From an uncultured Clostridia bacterium (GTDB lineage: Bacteria > Bacillota > Clostridia > TANB77 > CAG-508), in contig CALXXE010000005.1 in the NCBI GenBank assembly GCA_944392605.1, forward strand, positions 73,525-137,524: a stretch of DNA of 64,000 bases, given 5' to 3'. The notes beneath the pieces are model-generated. The model was given only the letters and a program-made list of their open reading frames with translations. It was not told the DNA's origin and searched no databases. Positions 19,759-61,359 of this stretch are shown here, piece by piece. Numbering within the stretch: the first letter of the stretch is position 1; each line of letters begins with the position of its first letter. The position numbers and the translations under genes are program-made.

Positions 19759-19787
19759 TTGAAAATTCACATAAAGTGGAGTATAAT
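19759..19787 (+). promoter_or_regulatory. Sigma-A-type promoter of the island-1 gene
   Basis: TTGAAA (19759-19764), 17-nt spacer, TATAAT (19782-19787), starting 4 nt after the giant ORF's stop codon. Confidence 0.55.
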
Positions 19788-19845
19788 AAAGTGCATAGTC
19801 ACTTTTGTGGCTGGTAGATAGAGGTACTTTAGAGAAAGGAAAAGA

Positions 19846-20487
19846 ATGGAAGTAAAGAAAATAGCAACCTTTAAGGAAATCCCGAGGGTTGCAACTGTAG
19901 GAGAACTTCAAAGTGGGTTCTCTATCCCGAATCCAGGTAAGATGGAGGGAGTACGTAGAGTATACGTTAGCAGAGAAGTTGTAAATGGCTGGAAGAACCA
20001 GTCTTTTACGAGCGATGATTATCCAGACGAGATTCCTGTTATTTATACGGGAAAGATGGAGGAAGATCCCGGAAACGGTGAGAAGCATCCGCTTTTTGTG
20101 ATTCCTATAATTACTAAGCCCTTTGATCTTTATGGCAGGGCAGGATGGTTCGCATGGAAGGAATTTAATAGGATTCTTAGGAGGATGTTGGCTCAGAAAG
20201 GGATAGCAAATATCAGATGTGCCGAAGAATCTGACTTCGAATCTATAGAGATTCCTAAAGGAAGATTTTGGCTTCCTACGCCTACCTTTACTAACGACGA
20301 CAAAAGTCGTACCCATTTTCTCATGAGGTACATGAATGATGGGAAGATTGGGACTTGTGACCTGTATCGTCAAGACGGTGAAGAATATGGTGGGAATCAA
20401 GGCTGCGGAATTCTGGCTTGCGTATCTTTGAACATTCGAGTAAGAGATGATGAACCGACAGAGAAAGCAAGAGGCTTGTGGGATTAA
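19846..20487 (+). CDS. Orphan 213-aa protein in a GC-rich compositional island, unknown function
   Basis: Promoter, AAAGGA SD and terminator are all on the + strand; about 45% GC in the sampled line 19921-19980; AAG/GAG/CCG/CGT codons unlike the host. Confidence 0.7.
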   Translation: MEVKKIATFKEIPRVATVGELQSGFSIPNPGKMEGVRRVYVSREVVNGWKNQSFTSDDYPDEIPVIYTGKMEEDPGNGEKHPLFVIPIITKPFDLYGRAGWFAWKEFNRILRRMLAQKGIANIRCAEESDFESIEIPKGRFWLPTPTFTNDDKSRTHFLMRYMNDGKIGTCDLYRQDGEEYGGNQGCGILACVSLNIRVRDDEPTEKARGLWD

Positions 20488-20508
20488 ATCTCACTAGAGT
20501 ACGTCTTT

Positions 20509-20540
20509 CGGGAGCTCCTTTATGGAGCTTCCGTTAATTT
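20509..20540 (+). terminator. Intrinsic terminator of the island-1 gene
   Basis: CGGGAGCTCC / GGAGCTTCCG 10-bp stem (one G-U pair), loop TTTAT, then TTAATTTT. Confidence 0.65.
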
Positions 20541-20605: not shown

Positions 20606-21607
20606 ATGATATATATTATGACAGAAAAAGAAATGATGGAAAAAATAATAAAAGGGATACCTAAAAGTGTATATAAAGGATCGCCGGAGGAAATAGAAAT
20701 TAAAATCGCTTTATATGTATATATAGAACTTGGAAAAATGAAATCGATTGACGAAAAAGTATATTGGGGAAATGGAAAAACGGCTTATAAAGTAATAGAA
20801 CAATCAAGAAGAGATAGTAAAGATATAAACGTGTTAGCAAGAAAAAGAAAGCTTACATGTATATCAATAGCAAATCTTTATAAAGAAGTGTTAAATAGAT
20901 TAGGGATTGAATGTAAAACAGTAAGATTTGATCCTCCGGATGTTCATTTAGATAATATAATTACTTTAAAAAGTGGTAGAAAAATATTTGCAGGATTACA
21001 ATCAGATATAAATAATATAAAGACAAGAAGAAGATTGGGATATTTTACTGCAATAGGAAAAGAGGATTTTTTACAAGAAGATGTATTAGCTCATTATCTA
21101 ATGGAAATTGGTTATGTATTTGATAATGAAAGCTTTAGAGAAAATCAAATTGATGATATAAAAAGAAGAGTAGAGTATATGGAACCTAGAAATGCATTAG
21201 CTGTTATTGTGGGAAGTGATGAGGTCTATAAAGGAATTAAAGATTTAGACGTTTCAGAAGCTTATTTCTATTATAAAAAGACAATAGAAGAGGTATTAGA
21301 TGATAAAAGATTTGAAAAAATATATAGATTTCCATGTTATACATTAGATAAAAATAAAGAACCAAATTTTTCCACATTTTGTATTTTTGCTGATACAGGA
21401 AATTATAGAACAATAACACCATATTTATATTCTAAAAAGCATGGAAGAATGCTTGTATGTGATTTAGAAACGTTAGAAAGATTAGAGGAACAAGGGCTAC
21501 ATTTCGGAAATTCAATATTTACTAGAGGAAAAAGAAAATTAGAGAATTATATAGATAGAGCAATGATGGCAAAAGAGATGAAAGAAGAAAAAGAATCAGA
21601 AAGATAA
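20606..21607 (+). CDS. Hypothetical protein, possible transglutaminase-like Cys-His-Asp fold
   Basis: LTCISIANLYKEVLNRLGIECKTV...DVHLDN resembles the transglutaminase-like core pattern; the start may be ATG 20618. Confidence 0.5.
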   Translation: MIYIMTEKEMMEKIIKGIPKSVYKGSPEEIEIKIALYVYIELGKMKSIDEKVYWGNGKTAYKVIEQSRRDSKDINVLARKRKLTCISIANLYKEVLNRLGIECKTVRFDPPDVHLDNIITLKSGRKIFAGLQSDINNIKTRRRLGYFTAIGKEDFLQEDVLAHYLMEIGYVFDNESFRENQIDDIKRRVEYMEPRNALAVIVGSDEVYKGIKDLDVSEAYFYYKKTIEEVLDDKRFEKIYRFPCYTLDKNKEPNFSTFCIFADTGNYRTITPYLYSKKHGRMLVCDLETLERLEEQGLHFGNSIFTRGKRKLENYIDRAMMAKEMKEEKESER

Positions 21608-53255: not shown

Positions 53256-55857
53256 ATGGAAGAAGAAACTAAAGTGAAGGAAATGATAGACAGTTTAGTT
53301 GAAAGGGCAAAAAAAGCATCAGAAGAATATCTAAAACTTGACCAAGAAACAGTAGACAACATTACAAAGGCAATGTCAATGGCGGGACTAGAACATCATA
53401 TGGAACTTGCAAAAATGGCAGTGGAAGAGACAGGAAGAGGAATTTATGAAGATAAAATTACGAAGAACATGTTTGCAACAGAATATGTGTATCACAGTAT
53501 AAAATATGAAAAAACCGTTGGAGTAATTAATAAAAATGAAGAAGAAGGATATGTTGAAATTGCAGAACCTGTTGGAATTATAGCAGGAGTAACACCAGTA
53601 ACAAATCCAACTTCTACTACTATGTTTAAATCAATAATTTCTGCTAAAACAAGAAATGTAATTATTTTTGGTTTTCACCCATCAGCTCAAAAATGTAGTA
53701 CGCGAGCAGCTGAAATTTTAAGAGATGCAGCTGTGAAGACAGGAGCACCAGAAGATTGTATTTTATGGATTGAAGAACCAAGTATACTTGCAACTAGAAC
53801 ACTTATGAATCACCCAGATGTTAATTTAATATTAGCAACAGGTGGAACTGGAATGGTTAAATCTGCATATTCTTGTGGAAAGCCAGCATTAGGAGTAGGG
53901 CCTGGAAATGTTCCTTGTTATATTGATAAAACAGCTAAATTAAAAACTTCAGTAAATGATTTAGTAATGTCAAAAGCATTTGATAATGGAATGATATGTG
54001 CATCAGAACAAGCTGTTTTGGTTGATAAAGATATTTATCAAGAGTTTGAAAAATTGATGAGAGAAGCCCGGATGTTATTTTGTGAATCCAGAAGAAAAAC
54101 AAAAATTACAAGAAAGTATGTTTGAGTATAGAGATGATATAGGATATAAATTAAAATCTCATGTACCTGGACAATCACCATATAAAATAGCAAAAGATGC
54201 AGGTTTTGAAGTTCCGGAAGATACAAAAGTATTAGTAGTATATGAAGAAGGAATAGGAAGAGAATATCCATTTTCAAAAGAAAAATTAAGCCCAGTGCTT
54301 ACTTATTATATTGTAGATAATGAAGAAGAAGGAATAGAAAAATCTGAAAAATTATTAGAATTTGGAGGACTTGGACATTCAGCAGTTATACATTCAGAAA
54401 ATAAGGAAACAATACTTAAATTTTCTAAGACAATGAAAGCAGGTAGAATCATTGTGAATTCACCTTCAACACATGGAGCAATTGGAGATATTTATAACAC
54501 AAATATGCCATCATTAACCTTAGGATGTGGTTCATTTGGTGGAAATTCAACAACTGCTAATGTTTCTTCAGTAAATCTTATTAATATAAAAAGAACGAGT
54601 AAGAGGAGGGTTAATATGCAATGGTTTAAAATACCTGAAAAAATATATTTTGAAGCAGGTTCTATTCAGTATTTAGAGAAAATGCCTGATATAGAGAGAG
54701 CTTTTATTGTGACAGATGAATCAATGGTAAAATTAGGATATGTAGATAGAATACTTTATCATTTAAGAAAAAGAGAACATTACGTACATTCAGAAATATT
54801 TGAGGATGTAGAATCAGACCCATCTTTTGATACAATAAAAAAAGGTGTAGAAGCAATGGAACGATTTAGACCTGATGTAATTATTGCATTAGGTGGTGGA
54901 AGTCCAATAGATGCAGCAAAAGGTATGTGGTTATTTTACGAACACCCAGATGCAGACCCAGAAGGTTTAAAATTAAAGTTTATGGATATTAGAAAACGTA
55001 CTTATAAATTTCCAAAACTAGGAACAAAATGTAAAATGGTGGCAATACCAACAACTTCTGGAACTGGTTCAGAAGTTACATCATTTGCAGTTATAACAGA
55101 TAAAAAGATAAATAAAAAATATCCTCTTGCTGATTATGAATTAACTCCAGATGTTGCAATAGTAGACCCAGACTTAGTAATGAGTCTTCCTAAAACTGTT
55201 ACAGCAGATACAGGAATGGATGTTCTAACACATGCAATAGAAGCGTATGTATCTAATATGGCATCAGATTATACAGATGGTTTAGCTGAAAAAGCAGTTG
55301 AGCTAGTATTTAAATATTTAAAAAGAGCTTATGATAATGGTAATGATAAAGAGGCAAGAGAGAAAATGCATAATGCAAGTACTATTGCAGGTATGGCATT
55401 TACAAATGCTTTCTTAGGAATAAATCATTCCTTAGCACATAAGCTAGGTGCAGAATTTCATATGGCACATGGTAGAATAAATGCTATACTTTTACCATAT
55501 GTAATAAGATATAACAGTAGTAAACCAACAAAATTTGTGTCATTCCCTAAATACGAATATTTTATAGCAGATGAAAAATATTATGAATTAGCAAAGAAAG
55601 TTGGACTAAAGGTAGATACAAAAGAAGAAGGAATTAATAGTTTAATAAAGAAAATAAAAGAATTAAATGAACACATGAATATTCCAAAATCTTTTAAAGA
55701 AGCAGGAATAGAGGAACAAGAATTTTTATCAAAGGTAGATATGTTAGCAGAAAGAAGCTTTGAAGACCAATGTACTACTGCAAACCCAAGAGTGCCTTTG
55801 GTATCAGAATTAAAACAAATTTTATTGGATAGCTATTATGGAAGAGAATATGAGTAA
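53256..55857 (+). pseudogene. adhE: Bifunctional aldehyde/alcohol dehydrogenase AdhE, disrupted by a 1-nt frameshift
   Basis: ALDH part (NGMICASEQ) in frame 0 to 54125; the continuation GCYFVNPEEKQKL... and the Fe-ADH part are in the next frame from 54061 on; the switch point fits the CCC run at 54067-54069. Confidence 0.8.
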
Positions 55858-57440: not shown

Positions 57441-57542
57441 AAATTTCCCTCCATAGTTTCAAAACTTTACATATTATATGATATTATTGACAAAATTTCA
57501 ATATTTTATAAAAGTCTTTTGAAAAATATGTCGAAAAATGTC

Positions 57543-57571
57543 TTGAAATCAAAACTTTAGGGTGTTATCAT
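57543..57571 (+). promoter_or_regulatory. Island-2 promoter 1
   Basis: TTGAAA (57543-57548), 17-nt spacer, TGtTATCAT (57566-57571). Confidence 0.5.
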
Positions 57572-57634
57572 TTTAACATGACCTTATTTAAGGTTGATGG
57601 TAGTAATCCGTTCTCTAGTTCTAAGGAGGAGAAG

Positions 57635-57739
57635 ATGGAAGAACGGAAAAGTTCATTTGAGCAGATGCAGGAAGACTTCATCAAAAAAGGAGGTATACGT
57701 CTTAGTAGCAAAGAATGGACAAAATCTTCGAGGGCGTAG
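57635..57739 (+). CDS. 34-aa ORF with a strong SD, overlapping the next ORF by 25 nt (leader peptide, or the 5' part of a frameshifted gene)
   Basis: AAGGAGGA precedes the ATG at 57635; MEERKSSFEQMQEDFIKKGGIRLSSKEWTKSSRA; not in the ORF track. Confidence 0.4.
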   Translation: MEERKSSFEQMQEDFIKKGGIRLSSKEWTKSSRA

Positions 57740-58122
57740 ATAGGATTGTCAAAAAGCGCTGGAGTGAGAATTCTAAGGCTGTTGATGATAAACAGCACTA
57801 TGCGGAATATGATTTCCTAACCGAAATCTATCTGTCAAGAAACAAGCTTACTTTTAAGCGCATGGAGCAGTCGAGGAAGCAAAATAAGAATGGTGCAGTG
57901 GTTGCAATTGGACACCGTAACAGGTGGAACTCAGACTGCTTGGAGATTTATGTTTGCCGTGATGATGAGGGAACATATCATACCTTCTTTGTCAAAGAGG
58001 AAGAAGGTATAGAAAGAGAATCCGAAAGACCAGAAGTTGTTGGATATCTTTGCATGAAGCTTCTTTCAGGAGAACTTTCTCTGGAAGAGGTACTCACCGA
58101 GCTTTTGGGCGGTGATGAGTGA
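57715..58122 (+). CDS. Orphan 135-aa protein, unknown function (island 2)
   Basis: GC-rich ORF followed by a terminator; no SD of its own near ATG 57715. Confidence 0.6.
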   Translation: MDKIFEGVDRIVKKRWSENSKAVDDKQHYAEYDFLTEIYLSRNKLTFKRMEQSRKQNKNGAVVAIGHRNRWNSDCLEIYVCRDDEGTYHTFFVKEEEGIERESERPEVVGYLCMKLLSGELSLEEVLTELLGGDE

Positions 58123-58133
58123 AAAACTGAAAA

Positions 58134-58160
58134 GGGAGCTCTTTATTGAGCTCCTTTTAT
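58134..58160 (+). terminator. Intrinsic terminator
   Basis: GGAGCTC-TTTATT-GAGCTCC followed by TTTTAT. Confidence 0.8.
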
Positions 58161-58174
58161 AATAAACAAGACTA

Positions 58175-58203
58175 TTGAAATATAATAATAATAGTGATAA
58201 AAT
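58175..58203 (+). promoter_or_regulatory. Island-2 promoter 2
   Basis: TTGAAA (58175-58180), 17-nt spacer, TGaTAAAAT (58198-58203). Confidence 0.5.
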
Positions 58204-58269
58204 ATACGCTGCTTGACAGAACGATAGTCAGGTAGAAGCCGAAATGTAGATGAAACAAAGGAGAAGTCT

Positions 58270-58461
58270 ATGAGTAAGCAAAAGAAACAGTTTGCTGGAG
58301 ATAAATTAAGAAAGAATCTAGTAGAAGATATAGAGGGCGAAGAAAAACCGAAAAACAAGCCAATAGTTATCGTAGGGTTTGTATTGTATGTGATTTTTGC
58401 AAGTGCGGCTTTGTTAGCTTTTATATATTATGCTAGGATGTTTCAAAATTTAGACCAGTGA
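58270..58461 (+). CDS. Orphan 63-aa single-pass membrane protein (island 2)
   Basis: AAGGAG 6 nt upstream; charged N-terminus, then the TM IVIVGFVLYVIFASAALLAFIYY. Confidence 0.6.
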   Translation: MSKQKKQFAGDKLRKNLVEDIEGEEKPKNKPIVIVGFVLYVIFASAALLAFIYYARMFQNLDQ

Positions 58462-58471
58462 CTGTAAAATG

Positions 58472-58498
58472 GGGCCTAGGATTCTAGACCCTTATTTT
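58472..58498 (+). terminator. Intrinsic terminator
   Basis: GGGcCTAG-GATT-CTAGaCCC stem (one mismatch) followed by TTATTTT. Confidence 0.55.
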
Positions 58499-58552
58499 AA
58501 AATATAGAAAGAATAAAAAACATATATTTCAATATTTTGAAGTATCTAAAGT

Positions 58553-58581
58553 TTGAAAAGATAGAAAAAGTATGGTATAAT
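58553..58581 (+). promoter_or_regulatory. Island-2 promoter 3
   Basis: TTGAAA (58553-58558), 17-nt spacer, TGgTATAAT (58576-58581). Confidence 0.55.
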
Positions 58582-58638
58582 ATAGTATATGGCAATAAAG
58601 CCATGCAGAGTCTGCCGACAACTGAAAGGAGAAACACA

Positions 58639-59133
58639 ATGTGTGTGCAGACAAGTGCAGATGTTAAAAAGCAGAAGGAACAGGCTCTGATTGAGAAGTT
58701 CGGAGTCAAGATTGGCAATGACGAGTGGAGCGAGATTCAGGACTACTATTCTTACTGGTCTGCTGAAGTGAGTAGGATGAGTACTCATTATTCGGACAGA
58801 AATAGGAGGATTCCTGAGGAGTATCGAGAAAAGCTCGATAGACAAAGGATGTTCTTTGAGGCTGTAAGAAATGCACATGATTACATGTACAAGCTGCAGT
58901 CTAGAATGTCGGACTTCACAGGAGAACTTGAGGACTACTGGATTATAAATATAGCTCCGGCAAGCTACCTTGTGAGTTACGAAGGGATTTCTCTACAAGG
59001 GCGTGTGGCATCTTTCCAAGAGCTTATAGGATTTTTTGCCTTAGGTGTAGCGAGAGGATGCTGGTCAATCGAAGACGTACTTGATAGGCCGGTAAGTGAA
59101 TGCAGAGCCAGAAAGCTTCTTGCAAAGAACTAA
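58639..59133 (+). CDS. Orphan 164-aa protein, unknown function (island 2)
   Basis: The ATG at 58639 follows AAAGGAGA; the ORF-track start at 58537 lies inside the promoter. Confidence 0.6.
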   Translation: MCVQTSADVKKQKEQALIEKFGVKIGNDEWSEIQDYYSYWSAEVSRMSTHYSDRNRRIPEEYREKLDRQRMFFEAVRNAHDYMYKLQSRMSDFTGELEDYWIINIAPASYLVSYEGISLQGRVASFQELIGFFALGVARGCWSIEDVLDRPVSECRARKLLAKN

Positions 59134-59144
59134 CTGCACGTTAA

Positions 59145-59175
59145 GGGGTTACCTACATAGGTGACCCCACTTTTT
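59145..59175 (+). terminator. Intrinsic terminator
   Basis: GGGGTTACCT..AGGTGACCCC stem followed by ACTTTTT. Confidence 0.65.
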
Positions 59176-59377
59176 ACTCTGAAATAATAAATGATGTCTT
59201 TATTTTTTTATTAAGCCATGATATCATGAAGACGATAAATTAATTATCTATTTTGAGAAACATATGCAAATAATTTCTAAATATAAACGGAAAAAGAAAT
59301 AAGACTATATAAATGTCGTTTGCTTAATTGTAAAATTTTTGATAAAATAATAAAGAATGTGAAATGAGGAAAAATAT

Positions 59378-59950
59378 ATGGAAACAAATATAATAACAAT
59401 TATTCAAATTTTAGTTACAATTATAGTTGCATTTATTACAGCATTTTTAACGAATTCCAATGAAAGAAAAAAACAGACAACAGTATTTTTTAAACAAGAA
59501 GGAATTAAAGTACAGCAAGAAATTTTAAACTTTTGGTGTTCAATATTGTTTAATGATTATCAAACGTCTATCAACAAGTATATAAATGATAATACTGAAA
59601 GAATAATGAAAGAAAACAATATAAATGAGCCAAATGAAATTACGGAAACAATGGCAATTATAGTAGTACAAAAGGATAGTTATATGTATTCTTCAAAATC
59701 AACAATAAAATATATAGGAAATTATATGCAAGAAATATTTAAAGAGCGAGAAAAGCAATCATTAATGAAGCAAATGTTTTTAGTAAGTAAAATTATAGCA
59801 AATATGAAGTATGATTTTACTGGAGAAAGAACATCCGCTATGGATTTATTGAAGATAAAAATTAATGATTTAGATAGAAATAAAAAAATAAAAATATATT
59901 GGTATGAAATAAAATACTTTTTTATTACGAATTATATTAGGTTTAACTAA
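59378..59950 (+). CDS. Hypothetical protein with an N-terminal TM anchor (190 aa)
   Basis: GAGGAAA SD; IITIIQILVTIIVAFITAFL TM; the rest is helical; no family recognised. Confidence 0.55.
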   Translation: METNIITIIQILVTIIVAFITAFLTNSNERKKQTTVFFKQEGIKVQQEILNFWCSILFNDYQTSINKYINDNTERIMKENNINEPNEITETMAIIVVQKDSYMYSSKSTIKYIGNYMQEIFKEREKQSLMKQMFLVSKIIANMKYDFTGERTSAMDLLKIKINDLDRNKKIKIYWYEIKYFFITNYIRFN

Positions 59951-60044
59951 ATGATAAAAAATAATTATGACGAAGGTTACAAGCTAAATTTGTACCTTCT
60001 ATTTTTATATTCACAGAAATTAAAAAAAGTGAGAGTGATATTTA

Positions 60045-60203
60045 TTGAAAAGTAAAAAAATAAAGATATCTGTATTTATATCTAATAATAGGAATATAAA
60101 AAAATCTCAGCAAGAACCAAAACGAATTTTCGCAAAGATATTGAAACATTTTAAAATATATGATATAAAAAACAATAACAAATCAGTAAAGAATGGAGAA
60201 TGA
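60045..60203 (+). CDS. Possible 52-aa lysine-rich ORF coupled to the RhuM-family gene
   Basis: TTG start; its TGA stop overlaps the ATG at 60200 (ATGA); weak SD. Confidence 0.25.
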   Translation: MKSKKIKISVFISNNRNIKKSQQEPKRIFAKILKHFKIYDIKNNNKSVKNGE

Positions 60204-61198
60204 AAATGCAAAAAAATGAAAATAATATATTAATTTATCAAGACGAAGATGGTGTTACAAAAGTTTTAGTAAAATTTAGTGATGAAGATATATGGCTTAC
60301 ACAAAATCAAATTGCTGAAATTTATAAAACAACACAAGAAAATATTTCAATGCACATAAAAAATATTTATAAAGATGGAGAATTAGAAAATGATTCAACT
60401 AATAAGAAATTCTTATTAGTTCAAAATGAAGGAAATAGGAAAGTTAAAAGAAATATTGACCACTATAATTTGGATATGATAATAGCATTGGGATATAGAG
60501 TACAGTCACAAGTTGCAACAAGATTTAGAATATGGGCTACTCAAAGACTTCACGAATATATACAAAAAGGATTTGCAATGGATGATGAGAGATTAAAACA
60601 AGGTGGATCAAGGTATTTTAGAGAACTATTACAAAGAATTAGAGATATCCGTTCATCTGAAAGAAATTTCTATCAACAAGTTACAGATATATATGCAACA
60701 TCAATAGATTATGATCCTCGTTCTGATTTAACAAAGAAATTTTTTGCGACAGTGCAAAACAAATTACATTTTGCAGTTCACGAACATACAGCGGCAGAAC
60801 TCATATATGAAAGAGTTGATAATGAAAAGCCATTTGTTGGTATGACTAATTTTAAAGGTGATTATGTAACTGTTGATGATGTAAAAATTGCTAAGAACTA
60901 TCTTTCTGAAATTGAATTACAAAGGTTAAATTTATTAGTTTCTCAATTTTTGGATTATGCAGAATTTCAGGCTTTAGAACAAAGAGCAATGACAATGGAA
61001 GACTGGATAAAAGAATTAGATAACCAAATAATACAAAACAAAAGAAAGCTACTTGAAGGTAAAGGAAAAATATCTCATCAAGAGGCAATGGAAAAGGCAG
61101 AAAAGGAATTTGAAATATATAGAGATAGAGAAATGAAACAATTAGAAAGTGACTTTGATAAAATGGTTAAAATGTTAAAAGACAATAACAAACAATAA
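60200..61198 (+). CDS. RhuM-family protein (virulence-associated / DNA-binding family)
   Basis: LTQNQIAEIYKTTQENISMHIKNIYKDGEL...MIIALGYRVQSQVATRFRIWATQRLHEYIQKGF. Confidence 0.8.
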   Translation: MKMQKNENNILIYQDEDGVTKVLVKFSDEDIWLTQNQIAEIYKTTQENISMHIKNIYKDGELENDSTNKKFLLVQNEGNRKVKRNIDHYNLDMIIALGYRVQSQVATRFRIWATQRLHEYIQKGFAMDDERLKQGGSRYFRELLQRIRDIRSSERNFYQQVTDIYATSIDYDPRSDLTKKFFATVQNKLHFAVHEHTAAELIYERVDNEKPFVGMTNFKGDYVTVDDVKIAKNYLSEIELQRLNLLVSQFLDYAEFQALEQRAMTMEDWIKELDNQIIQNKRKLLEGKGKISHQEAMEKAEKEFEIYRDREMKQLESDFDKMVKMLKDNNKQ

Positions 61199-61359
61199 AT
61201 ATTTTACCAAGAGAGAACGTAAAGCATATTTTTTAAAGTTCTAAAATTTTGAATTTTTAGAGCTTTTTATTATACTTATTTTCTAAATAATTTACCAATT
61301 CACTTTTTACGTAAATAAAACATAATATATAACAGAATAAAGTGAAAGGTGGTAGAAAA

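What the first reader, a model, noticed from the sequence alone, without database searches (positions are those of the whole stretch)
57540..59175. Compositional island 2: autonomous orphan gene cassettes inserted between asnS and an RhuM-family gene
SEEN:
- A sampled line (57901-57960) has 28/60 G+C. A typical host line (21001-21060) has 15/60.
- Codon choice switches to AAG/GAG/CTG/CGT.
- The block holds ORFs of 34, 135, 63 (single TM) and 164 aa. I cannot place any of them in a known family.
- It is organised as three self-contained units.
- Each unit has a TTGAAA, 17-nt spacer, (TGn)TAnnAT promoter (57543, 58175, 58553) and its own hairpin terminator (58134, 58472, 59145).
- No integrase, transposase or flanking repeats are visible.

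INFERENCE: This is a recently acquired module from a donor of about 45% GC and of unknown function. Small independently transcribed genes, including a tiny TM protein, sit in an accessory stretch next to a TM-anchored orphan and a RhuM gene. That layout resembles phage morons, toxin/immunity pairs or small anti-phage modules. This is my best candidate for an undescribed system in the window.
Basis: partly seen in the sequence, partly recalled or inferred. Interest (0 to 1): 0.7.

Follow-up and report, generated by a model that had tools for sequence, protein, structure and literature searches.

The report
Clade-specific orphan gene cassettes near asnS
The G+C-rich stretch is real and holds three independently transcribed small genes (one of them broken) from protein families found only at this one chromosomal site in a narrow group of uncultured gut Clostridia. 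It is an old, fast-diverging resident of a variable hotspot, not a recent import, and its function is unknown.

Summary
Region 57540-59175 has 39% G+C against 27.5% elsewhere (z=5.2), third-position G+C (GC3) of 0.31-0.46 against 0.12-0.17, three near-consensus promoters and three terminator hairpins.

Corrections:
1. The 34-aa and 135-aa ORFs are one 162-aa gene (A). It is broken by a 1-nt deletion that also appears in four independent assemblies.
2. A and the 164-aa gene (B) are distant paralogs (hhalign probability 93%). The 63-aa gene (C) is a tail-anchored membrane protein.
3. The block is not a recent acquisition. A-C-B lies between asnS and murA in several related lineages. Its dS is similar to the flanks and its dN/dS is 0.15-0.3.
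4. Sister species carry very divergent alleles at the same site (28-52% identity; layouts B, C-B, A-A-C). About 12 further relatives have asnS directly next to murA.
5. The recently exchanged piece is the adjacent AT-rich AbiN-RhuM pair, which is 99.5-100% identical to a lineage whose flanks differ by 8-16%.

Searches of billions of proteins, Pfam, PHROGs, PADLOC, NCBIfam, PDB, phage, plasmid and viral collections found no relatives outside this locus.

Best guess, with low confidence: small acidic binding or inhibitor proteins used in phage or interbacterial conflict. It is a modestly interesting orphan family, not a demonstrated new system.

The parts
57545..61275 (.). Variable locus between the asnS and murA promoters. 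It holds two modules in this genome: the G+C-rich A-C-B block and the AT-rich AbiN-RhuM pair.
   Evidence: DNA identity to L097, L018 and L077 is 85-92% up to window 57510-57544 and again from 61275-61285. Between those points it is 70% or less, or cannot be aligned. The asnS-murA gap ranges from about 110 bp to 7.7 kb in 50 related species.
57543..57571 (+). Promoter-like site of gene A (TTGAAA, 17 nt, TG-n-TATCAT)
   Evidence: Promoter scan, 10 of 12 matches with an extended -10. Conserved in L001 and L011. An equivalent site precedes every family member in the divergent alleles.
57635..58122 (+). Gene A, 162-aa family. Here it is a frameshifted pseudogene, read as the 34-aa ORF 57635-57739 plus the 135-aa ORF 57715-58122.
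   Evidence: Homologs of 161-162 aa read straight through (...SKEWDKIFEG...). Inserting one G restores a 162-aa product. dN/dS is 0.17-0.20.
57717..57718 (+). Frameshift site: GG where intact alleles have GGG
   Evidence: The same GG is present in four independent assemblies, L107-L110, that are 99.9-100% identical to the window. L001, L008, L011 and L106 have GGG.
58134..58154 (+). Terminator hairpin after gene A (GGGAGCTC-TTTATT-GAGCTCC, then a T-run)
   Evidence: -17.4 kcal/mol, z=-5.6. Detected by the scan. Invariant in L001 and L011.
58175..58203 (+). Promoter-like site of gene C (TTGAAA, 17 nt, TG-n-TAAAAT)
58270..58461 (+). Gene C: 63 aa, basic (pI 9.35), with a charged N-terminal half and one C-terminal hydrophobic helix (tail-anchored membrane protein)
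   Evidence: The sequence is given. A family of 56-75 aa proteins lies at the same locus in relatives (HMM E-values 1e-11 to 1e-35). dN/dS is 0.2-0.5. pI is.
58465..58499 (+). Terminator hairpin after gene C. It is imperfect here and a perfect 8-bp stem in L001.
   Evidence: -12.2 kcal/mol, z=-2.3. Alignment.
58553..58581 (+). Promoter-like site of gene B (TTGAAA, 17 nt, TG-n-TATAAT)
   Evidence: 11 of 12 matches, the best site in the region. It lies downstream of the alternative TTG start at 58537, so the 164-aa reading is the right one.
58639..59133 (+). Gene B: 164 aa, acidic (pI 5.8), a distant paralog of gene A
   Evidence: Homologs of 153-164 aa. hhalign of the A family against the B family gives probability 93.1% and E=3e-7 over 131 columns. 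dN/dS is 0.15-0.22.
59145..59168 (+). Terminator hairpin after gene B
   Evidence: 10-bp stem with a T-run. -18.2 kcal/mol, z=-4.1. Pairing is kept through G-U and A-U changes in L001 and L011.
59378..59950 (+). Neighbouring module, gene 1: AbiN-like abortive-infection protein (190 aa, N-terminal TM)
   Evidence: PADLOC AbiN 5.5e-19 and phrog_8187 3e-19. 100% identical in L017.
60200..61198 (+). Neighbouring module, gene 2: RhuM-family protein (PADLOC candidate PDC-S05)
   Evidence: Pfam Virulence_RhuM 5e-108 and PDC-S05 3e-144. The segment 59044-61300 is 99.5-100% identical to L017, whose flanks are 84-97% identical.

Best explanation
SHOWN.
- The island is the G+C-rich half of a hypervariable accessory locus. 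The locus lies between the promoters of two core genes, asnS and murA, in a narrow clade of uncultured, roughly 27-30% G+C gut Clostridia.
- It holds three monocistronic cassettes. Each has a near-consensus sigma-A-type promoter with an extended -10, a strong Shine-Dalgarno sequence and its own terminator.
- The products are two distantly paralogous acidic soluble proteins of about 19 kDa (A, inactivated here by a 1-nt deletion, and B) and a 7-kDa tail-anchored membrane protein (C).
- The A/B superfamily (plus a third branch, D, on the other side of asnS) and the C family occur only around asnS in this clade.
- Within one allele class the genes are inherited with the flanks and are under purifying selection. 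Between sister lineages whole allele sets are swapped (A-C-B, C-B, B, A-A-C, or empty), with sharp break-points at the flanking promoters.
- The composition is foreign-like and is drifting towards A+T. This fits an old import from an unsampled donor with higher G+C.

INFERRED (about 0.3).
- A and B are non-enzymatic binding or inhibitor proteins. Examples would be immunity-type neutralisers of an incoming toxin or phage protein, or sensors or decoys in phage exclusion.
- C is an optional membrane partner or an independent membrane-level protector.
- Constitutive expression from separate promoters would let each gene act alone.
- Diversifying or frequency-dependent selection in conflicts with phages or competitors would drive the turnover of alleles.
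For: Anatomy. Every family member in every divergent allele has its own TTGAAA-17-TGnTAnAAT promoter and hairpin.

One gene A.

Paralogy of A and B. D branch.

Restriction to this clade and locus:
- 6-7 clusters per family among 5.8 billion proteins.
- 4 true representatives among 1.84 billion.
- 12 clusters with the superfamily profile.
- Every context recovered is next to asnS.

Co-inheritance and selection: dS 0.41-0.63 against 0.23-0.38 in the flanks, and dN/dS 0.15-0.30. Amino-acid identity is 82-85% against 93-97% for the flanks.

Allele replacement:
- L097 has asnS dS of 0.23 to the window, the same as L017, but its B is only 52% identical and it has no A.
- Identity drops sharply at 57545 and recovers at 61275.
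- About 12 species have an empty site.

Composition. Polarised third-position changes are GC->AT 41 and AT->GC 25 in the island, against 7 and 25 in asnS (Fisher p=2e-4).

Conflict context: AbiN and RhuM/PDC-S05 here, and Bro-N and TerB_N/TerB_C proteins at the same site in relatives.

Non-enzymatic look: pI of 5.2 and 5.8, and invariant positions that are mostly hydrophobic, aromatic or Gly.
Against: - There is no sequence or structure link to any immunity, antitoxin or defence family.
- The AlphaFold models are poor (pLDDT 55 and 42), so the fold is unknown.
- No toxin or effector gene lies in the locus.
- Immunity and defence genes usually travel on mobile elements and turn up in many contexts. 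These never leave the asnS neighbourhood and were not found in any phage, plasmid or viral collection.
- Co-location with defence genes is weak evidence in a hotspot that also takes other cargo.
- Gene A is dispensable in the window lineage.
- The parsimony test of amelioration is biased: asnS itself appears out of equilibrium.
Confidence: 0.4

Rival explanations
1. Lineage-specific cellular function. A, B and C are young clade-restricted accessory proteins of ordinary physiology, for example modulators of envelope synthesis, division or sporulation placed upstream of murA-ftsQ-ftsA-ftsZ-spoIIGA, or of AsnRS. They evolve fast because constraint is weak, not because of conflict.
For: - The position next to asnS is fixed, on both sides of that gene, directly upstream of the dcw/sporulation cluster.
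- Within an allele class the genes are inherited vertically under purifying selection.
- The promoters look constitutive and sigma-A-type.
- No mobile-element or toxin genes are present.
Against: - Presence, absence and copy number vary among sister species, and about 12 relatives have an empty site.
- Whole-allele replacement has sharp boundaries.
- A is pseudogenised in a widespread clone.
- GC3 is foreign-like in all alleles.
Confidence: 0.2
2. Relic of a mobile element. The cassettes are morons or cargo left behind by a decayed prophage or integrative element from a donor of about 45% G+C.
For: - The architecture is moron-like: promoter, ORF and terminator, with deviant G+C.
- The island shows a net GC->AT drift.
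- A second G+C-rich orphan cassette at 19846-20487 shares the GGGAGCTC terminator stem. That stem has 2 occurrences in the window against 0.15 expected.
Against: - No phage, integrase or att-like sequence lies in or around the block.
- No match was found in INPHARED, PLSDB, IMG/VR or JGI metagenome contigs.
- No homolog outside this locus appears among about 15 billion proteins.
- All divergent alleles sit at exactly the same site.
Confidence: 0.2
3. Toxin-antitoxin or holin-like module. C is a small membrane toxin, and A or B neutralises it.
For: C is a small, basic, single-TM protein placed between two acidic soluble proteins.
Against: - Each gene has its own promoter and terminator, with no operon or antisense arrangement.
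- C is absent from alleles that have B alone (L018, L023), and A/B type and number vary independently of C.
- No PADLOC or Pfam toxin-antitoxin hit was found.
- The loss of A in the window clone is tolerated while C stays intact.
Confidence: 0.08
4. Decaying or non-functional DNA whose ORFs are incidental. Long ORFs arise more easily in G+C-richer sequence within an A+T-rich genome.
For: Gene A is broken here. The families are tiny and unannotated.
Against: - dN/dS is 0.15-0.30, with substitutions concentrated at third positions.
- Intact ORFs, Shine-Dalgarno sequences, promoters and terminators are conserved across alleles that are only 28-52% identical.
Confidence: 0.05

Closest known systems
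Core-gene-flanked defence hotspots (e.g. cDHS1/cDHS2 of Pseudomonas aeruginosa, PMC10250203; E. coli defence-island hotspots, PMC10121019)
   Same: The segment is variable and bounded by conserved core genes. Its cargo changes between close relatives, includes known defence genes (AbiN, RhuM/PDC-S05, TerB, Bro-N) and many genes of unknown function, and is exchanged by recombination in the flanks.
   Different: - The A, B and C families are confined to this single locus and clade.
- They carry no mobile-element markers.
- Within an allele class they are inherited vertically.
- No anti-phage activity is known for them.
- The hotspot is tiny, at 0.1-7.7 kb.
Phage morons (autonomous promoter-ORF-terminator units of deviant composition inserted between phage genes; from my own knowledge of the lambdoid-phage literature)
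   Same: Each gene is a self-contained transcription unit with a base composition unlike its surroundings.
   Different: The flanks are the chromosomal core genes asnS and murA, not phage genes. No phage or viral relatives exist.
Polyimmunity / orphan immunity gene arrays of polymorphic-toxin systems (e.g. SUKH/SMI1-KNR4 and Imm families; from my own knowledge)
   Same: - Small acidic soluble proteins of 140-165 aa.
- Tandem, rapidly diverging paralogs.
- Variable copy number and no enzymatic motifs.
- An N-terminal 'helix-G-h-x-h-G-x-x-E-W-x-x-I' pattern that loosely recalls the SUKH 'LG-x-x-LP-x-x-Y-x-x-F' start.
   Different: - None of 22 members gave a SUKH or consistent Imm Pfam hit at E<=5.
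- No toxin gene is nearby.
- The fold is not established.
Classical horizontally acquired genomic island
   Same: G+C and codon usage are atypical, and the island shows a net drift towards host composition.
   Different: - There is no integrase, tRNA target or terminal repeat.
- It is shared and syntenic in several related lineages, with dS similar to the flanks.
- No donor is detectable.

Membership tests
   z=5.2 for G+C. GC3 is 0.31-0.46 against 0.12-0.17.
   The A-C-B block is present and syntenic in the L001, L011, L017, L105 and L106 lineages. Its dS of 0.41-0.63 is of the same order as asnS and murA.
   No integrase or transposase ORF or family hit. No Rfam or tRNA feature. The boundaries coincide with promoters.
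Phage moron | Autonomous promoter and terminator around a single ORF, with deviant composition | tested here: met
Phage moron | Embedded in a phage or prophage genome | tested here: not met
   The flanks are asnS and murA. There is no PHROG hit for A, B or C at E<0.01, and no match in INPHARED or IMG/VR.
Defence-hotspot cargo | Lies in a segment between core genes whose content varies among relatives | tested here: met
   The gap is 110 bp to 7.7 kb in 50 species, with sharp identity break-points.
Defence-hotspot cargo | Known defence genes share the hotspot | tested here: met
   AbiN and RhuM/PDC-S05 in the window. TerB_N/TerB_C and Bro-N proteins at the site in relatives.
Defence-hotspot cargo | The genes themselves confer phage resistance or match a defence family | tested here: not met
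   PADLOC gave no credible hit for A, B or C. The only match was Cas10b at E=0.0034, 14 bits, which I treat as chance. Activity cannot be tested with these tools.
SUKH / Imm-type immunity proteins | Match to SMI1_KNR4/SUKH or Imm profile HMMs | tested here: not met
   22 A and B members were scanned against Pfam at E<=5. There were no SUKH hits and a single Imm25 hit at E=0.047 in one member.
SUKH / Imm-type immunity proteins | SUKH alpha+beta fold | tested here: inconclusive
   The AF2 models have pLDDT of 54.6 and 41.7. Foldseek found nothing at E<0.5.
SUKH / Imm-type immunity proteins | Genomic linkage to a polymorphic toxin | tested here: not met
   No toxin-like gene lies in any of the loci examined.
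Toxin-antitoxin module | Two genes that are co-transcribed or antisense-regulated and strictly co-occur | tested here: not met
   Each gene has separate promoters and terminators. C is missing from the L018 and L023 alleles.
Structured non-coding RNA (an alternative reason for a G+C-rich island in an A+T-rich genome) | Match to an RNA family, or conservation that does not follow codon structure | tested here: not met
   No Rfam hit: the best was SraG at 25 bits against a gathering score of 50. dN/dS is well below 1.

The most novel reading that the evidence does not exclude
A, B and C (with D) form a previously undescribed, clade-private conflict system: constitutively expressed small inhibitor or sensor proteins plus a tail-anchored partner. 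Their allele classes would be kept at one fixed chromosomal site by balancing or frequency-dependent selection and shuffled by homologous recombination in the asnS and murA flanks, in the manner of a bacterial 'immune-type' locus. Their elevated G+C would reflect either origin from an unsampled gene pool or recombination-associated biased gene conversion.
Probability: 0.2. Interest if true: 0.6.

Novelty: new member of a known kind. Interest (0 to 1): 0.35.

Why it matters
If the A/B/C genes act in phage or interbacterial conflict, they would add a new protein superfamily with no detectable relatives. They would also give an example of immunity-like alleles tied to one chromosomal site rather than to mobile elements, in an uncultured, poorly studied group of gut Clostridia.

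The locus also shows that a compositional island does not have to be recent. Here the G+C-rich block is the old resident, and the host-like AbiN-RhuM block is the fresh import.

Without a phenotype it remains an uncharacterised orphan family of local interest.

Tried and rejected
- **Profile searches.** Pfam, PHROGs, NCBIfam and PADLOC found nothing for A, B or C, either for the window proteins or for 22 divergent members. My first call used a wrong frame for the 34-aa piece and wrong coordinates for B. Both were corrected later.
- **PDB sequence-profile searches.** Four searches gave nothing below E=0.16.
- **Structure.** Foldseek on the better model against PDB and BFVD was uninformative.
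- **Donor search.** blastn against phages and plasmids, IMG/VR and JGI metagenome contigs found nothing. The superfamily alignment was too divergent for the locus finder.
- **Non-coding RNA reading.** Rejected.
- **Sequencing error as the cause of the frameshift.** Rejected, because the same deletion is in four independent assemblies.
- **Active maintenance of high G+C.** The polarised-substitution test shows net GC->AT change in the island, so I do not favour this. The test is biased, because asnS also appears out of equilibrium, so I treat the result as suggestive only.
- **5'-UTR hairpins.** They are conserved in relatives but not significantly stable (z from 0 to -1.7), so I do not count them as features.
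- **Integron cassette reading.** Rejected. There is no integrase, the genes carry their own promoters, and the hairpins are followed by T-runs like terminators.
Full report

Yes.
- The two sampled lines have 28/60 and 15/60 G+C, as stated.
- Region 57540-59175 is 39.1% G+C. All other windows of the same size average 27.5% (sd 2.2, maximum 35.8), giving z=5.2.
- The anomaly lies in the coding sequence, not the spacers. GC3 (G+C at third codon positions) is 0.43-0.48 for the two pieces of the first gene, 0.31 for the 63-aa gene and 0.46 for the 164-aa gene. It is 0.12-0.17 for asnS, adhE, murA and ftsQ. The intergenic stretches are 25-32% G+C.
- The three promoter-like sites (57543, 58175, 58553; TTGAAA, 17 nt, TG-n-TAnnAT) are the best + strand hits of the consensus scan.
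- The three hairpins fold at -17.4, -12.2 and -18.2 kcal/mol, with z-scores of -5.6, -2.3 and -4.1.
- None of the products matches Pfam, PHROGs, NCBIfam or PADLOC.
- Rfam finds no RNA family.

**2. Corrections to the gene inventory**

- Homologs of the 135-aa ORF are 161-162 aa long (181 aa where an upstream start was called). They read straight through the junction of the 34-aa and 135-aa ORFs (...SSKEWDKIFEGV...).
- The window has GG at 57717-57718 where relatives have GGG. Restoring one G gives an intact 162-aa protein.
- The deletion is present in four independent metagenome assemblies that are 99.9-100% identical to the window (L107-L110). It is therefore a real pseudogene allele of a widespread clone and not a sequencing error. 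Near-identical intact alleles also exist (P0007, P0013).
- I call the genes A (162 aa, 57635-58122), C (63 aa, 58270-58461) and B (164 aa, 58639-59133). The alternative TTG start of B at 58537 lies upstream of B's own promoter, so the 164-aa reading is correct.
- With deeper alignments, A and B turn out to be distant paralogs: hhalign probability 93.1%, E=3e-7 over 131 columns. They share an N-terminal G-[VI]-x-[LI]-G-x-x-E-W-x-x-I motif and a C-terminal E-[VIL]-[VI]-G-[YF]-L...G-x-x-[SD]-[LIF]-E-[ED]-[AV] motif.
- A and B are acidic (pI 5.2 and 5.8). C is basic (pI 9.35), with a charged N-terminal half and one C-terminal hydrophobic helix.

**3. Where else do these genes occur?**

The families are very small.
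- There are 6-7 clusters per family among 5.8 billion proteins.
- There are four true representatives of B among 1.84 billion cluster representatives.
- A profile of the whole superfamily finds 12 clusters.
- None carries a name.
- Nothing similar is found in phage or plasmid records, IMG/VR or JGI metagenome contigs.
- Every genomic context recovered is the neighbourhood of asnS in uncultured, roughly 27-30% G+C Clostridia MAGs from animal and human guts.
- A third branch of the superfamily (D, 138-150 aa) sits on the other side of asnS, between adhE and asnS, in some species.

**4. Evolutionary behaviour**

(a) The block is shared and inherited with its flanks.
- The A-C-B block lies directly between asnS and murA in several related lineages (L001-L008, L011-L016, L017; partial contigs L105 and L106). 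In L001 and L011, where it was computed, the block is equally G+C-rich: GC3 0.25-0.44 against 0.11-0.16 in the neighbouring genes.
- Its promoters and terminators are almost invariant.
- Among the window, L001 and L011, dS is 0.41-0.63 for most A, C and B comparisons, against 0.23-0.38 for asnS, murA and ftsQ. dN/dS is 0.15-0.30 for A and B and up to 0.53 for the short C gene.
- Amino-acid identity is 82-85% against 93-97% for the flanks.
- These are therefore real, selected protein genes that have been inherited with their flanks since before these lineages split. This contradicts 'recently acquired'.

(b) One step further out, the picture changes abruptly.
- GTDB species whose AsnRS is 89-96% identical carry, at the same site, family members that are only 28-52% identical. 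Their layouts also differ: B alone (L018), C-B (L077, L097), A-A-C (L020, L025), A-C plus a TerB_N/TerB_C protein (L022), and B plus a Bro-N protein (L023).
- L097 is as close to the window at asnS (dS 0.23) as L017 is, yet its B is only 52% identical and it has no A.
- DNA identity to L097, L018 and L077 is 85-92% up to window 57510-57544 and again from 61275-61285. In between it is 70% or less, or cannot be aligned.
- In about 12 more distant species asnS and murA are adjacent, 110-200 bp apart. In others the gap holds up to 7.7 kb of unrelated genes.
- The locus 57545-61275 is thus a small hypervariable hotspot in which whole allele sets are replaced by recombination in the conserved flanks.

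(c) Every A, B or C gene in every allele keeps the same design: a TTGAAA-17-TGnTAnAAT promoter and its own terminator. The autonomous-cassette layout is therefore a trait of the family.

**5. The recent transfer is next door**

- Against L017, the island is 87-92% identical, asnS 90-97% and murA-ftsQ 84-88%. The segment 59044-61300 is 99.5-100% identical.
- That segment covers the last 90 nt of B, its terminator, the 190-aa gene and the RhuM gene.
- The 190-aa 'TM-anchored orphan' is an AbiN-like abortive-infection protein (PADLOC 5.5e-19; phrog_8187 3e-19). The RhuM gene matches the PADLOC candidate PDC-S05 (3e-144).
- Relatives such as L001 lack this pair and go straight from B's terminator to murA.
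- The host-like, A+T-rich module is therefore the fresh import, and the compositional island is the old resident.

**6. Origin of the composition**

- Polarised third-position singletons among four lineages give 41 GC->AT against 25 AT->GC changes in the island. In asnS the counts are 7 and 25 (Fisher p=2e-4). Per-site rates are similar in both.
- This fits slow amelioration of an old import and argues against active maintenance of high G+C.
- The parsimony test is biased, because asnS itself appears out of equilibrium, so I treat the result as suggestive only.
- No donor is detectable.

**7. What might it do?**

- Nothing links A, B or C to a known fold or family. The two AlphaFold models, built on shallow alignments before the divergent members were found, are poor (pLDDT 54.6 and 41.7). 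Foldseek returns nothing meaningful.
- What can be said from the sequences is this. A and B are small, acidic and soluble. Their invariant positions are hydrophobic, aromatic or glycine rather than catalytic. They occur as 1-2 paralogs per locus. C is optional, being absent in L018 and L023. Each gene is expressed from its own strong sigma-A-type promoter. Allele classes turn over quickly. The same hotspot collects AbiN, RhuM, Bro-N and TerB genes.
- The best-fitting reading, by inference only (about 0.3), is binding or inhibitor proteins engaged in conflict: immunity-type neutralisers, or phage-exclusion sensors or decoys. C would be an independent or partnering membrane component.
- Rival readings: a young lineage-specific cellular function near the division cluster (0.2), cargo left by a vanished mobile element (0.2), a toxin-antitoxin pair (0.08), or junk (0.05).

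**8. Comparison with what is known**

- The locus behaves like the core-gene-flanked defence hotspots described in Pseudomonas and E. coli (PMC10250203, PMC10121019).
- The individual units look like phage morons, but they are not in a phage.
- The paralog arrays recall polyimmunity loci, but there is no SUKH or Imm match and no toxin.
- The locus fails two of the three criteria for a recent genomic island.
- I file it as a new member of a known kind: uncharacterised cargo of a chromosomal variable hotspot. It is built from a protein superfamily with no detectable relatives.

**9. Verdict**

It is not a recent acquisition, and it is not shown to be a system.
- Interest is modest (0.35). The most novel reading still open is a clade-private conflict locus with allele classes maintained at a fixed site. 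I put it at about 0.2 probability, and it would merit about 0.6 if true.

Noticed in passing
window 19759-20540: A second G+C-rich orphan cassette: a 213-aa ORF at 19846-20487 with GC3 of 0.40 and no Pfam hit. It has a TTGAAA-17-TATAAT promoter at 19759. Its terminator hairpin stem GGGAGCTC occurs only twice in the window (20510 and 58134; 0.15 expected by chance). The protein is unrelated to A and B. The gene sits in the same context (after the 2713-aa GH94-type gene) in many metagenome samples.
   Followed up: partly
window 59044-61300 (AbiN 59378-59950, RhuM 60200-61198): This segment is 99.5-100% identical to L017, a GTDB species representative whose flanking genes differ by 8-16%. That indicates a recent inter-lineage transfer of an AbiN-RhuM pair by recombination, with the left cross-over inside the 3' end of gene B.
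   Followed up: yes
window 59166-59175 and 61301-61310: The 10-nt sequence CACTTTTTAC lies at both ends of the AbiN-RhuM insert, measured against the uninterrupted L001 site. L001 already contains both similar motifs about 35 nt apart. This may be microhomology used for insertion rather than a target-site duplication.
   Followed up: partly
window 53256-55857: adhE is split into overlapping 289-aa (Aldedh) and 591-aa (Fe-ADH) ORFs. The gene is a single 866-aa ORF in L001. The split is also present in the independent assemblies L107 and L108, and a similar split occurs in L101, so it looks like a real frameshift or separation rather than an error.
   Followed up: partly
L020-L022, L024, L025, L101-L104 (between adhE and asnS): A third branch (D, 138-150 aa; P0024, P0025) of the A/B superfamily lies on the other side of asnS in some species. 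The window has only about 190 bp at that position.
   Followed up: partly
L009-L014, L039, L081: Truncated 5' fragments of murA (67-124 aa) lie next to inserted cargo (AbiN, a 778-aa gene, an AAA/FtsH-like 1224-aa gene). This suggests that some insertions at this hotspot recombine within murA and duplicate its 5' part. murA is also called as two ORFs (166 + 217/256 aa) in L003, L097 and L101.
   Followed up: no
L034 (234-aa ORF next to asnS), L028 (260 aa), L035/L045/L048/L066 (129-224 aa): In more distant species the first gene after asnS is often another orphan with raised G+C (GC3 0.22-0.32). Its C-terminal motif (e.g. ...LLDALGIAKGAWNIGDIV) resembles that of A and B by eye. These may be remote members of the superfamily. 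None had a Pfam hit.
   Followed up: partly
L022 and L023/L026/L030 (asnS-murA gap): Other cargo at the same hotspot includes a 576-aa TerB_N/TerB_C protein, Bro-N domain proteins of 284-287 aa, and an FGE-sulfatase-like family with raised G+C.
   Followed up: partly
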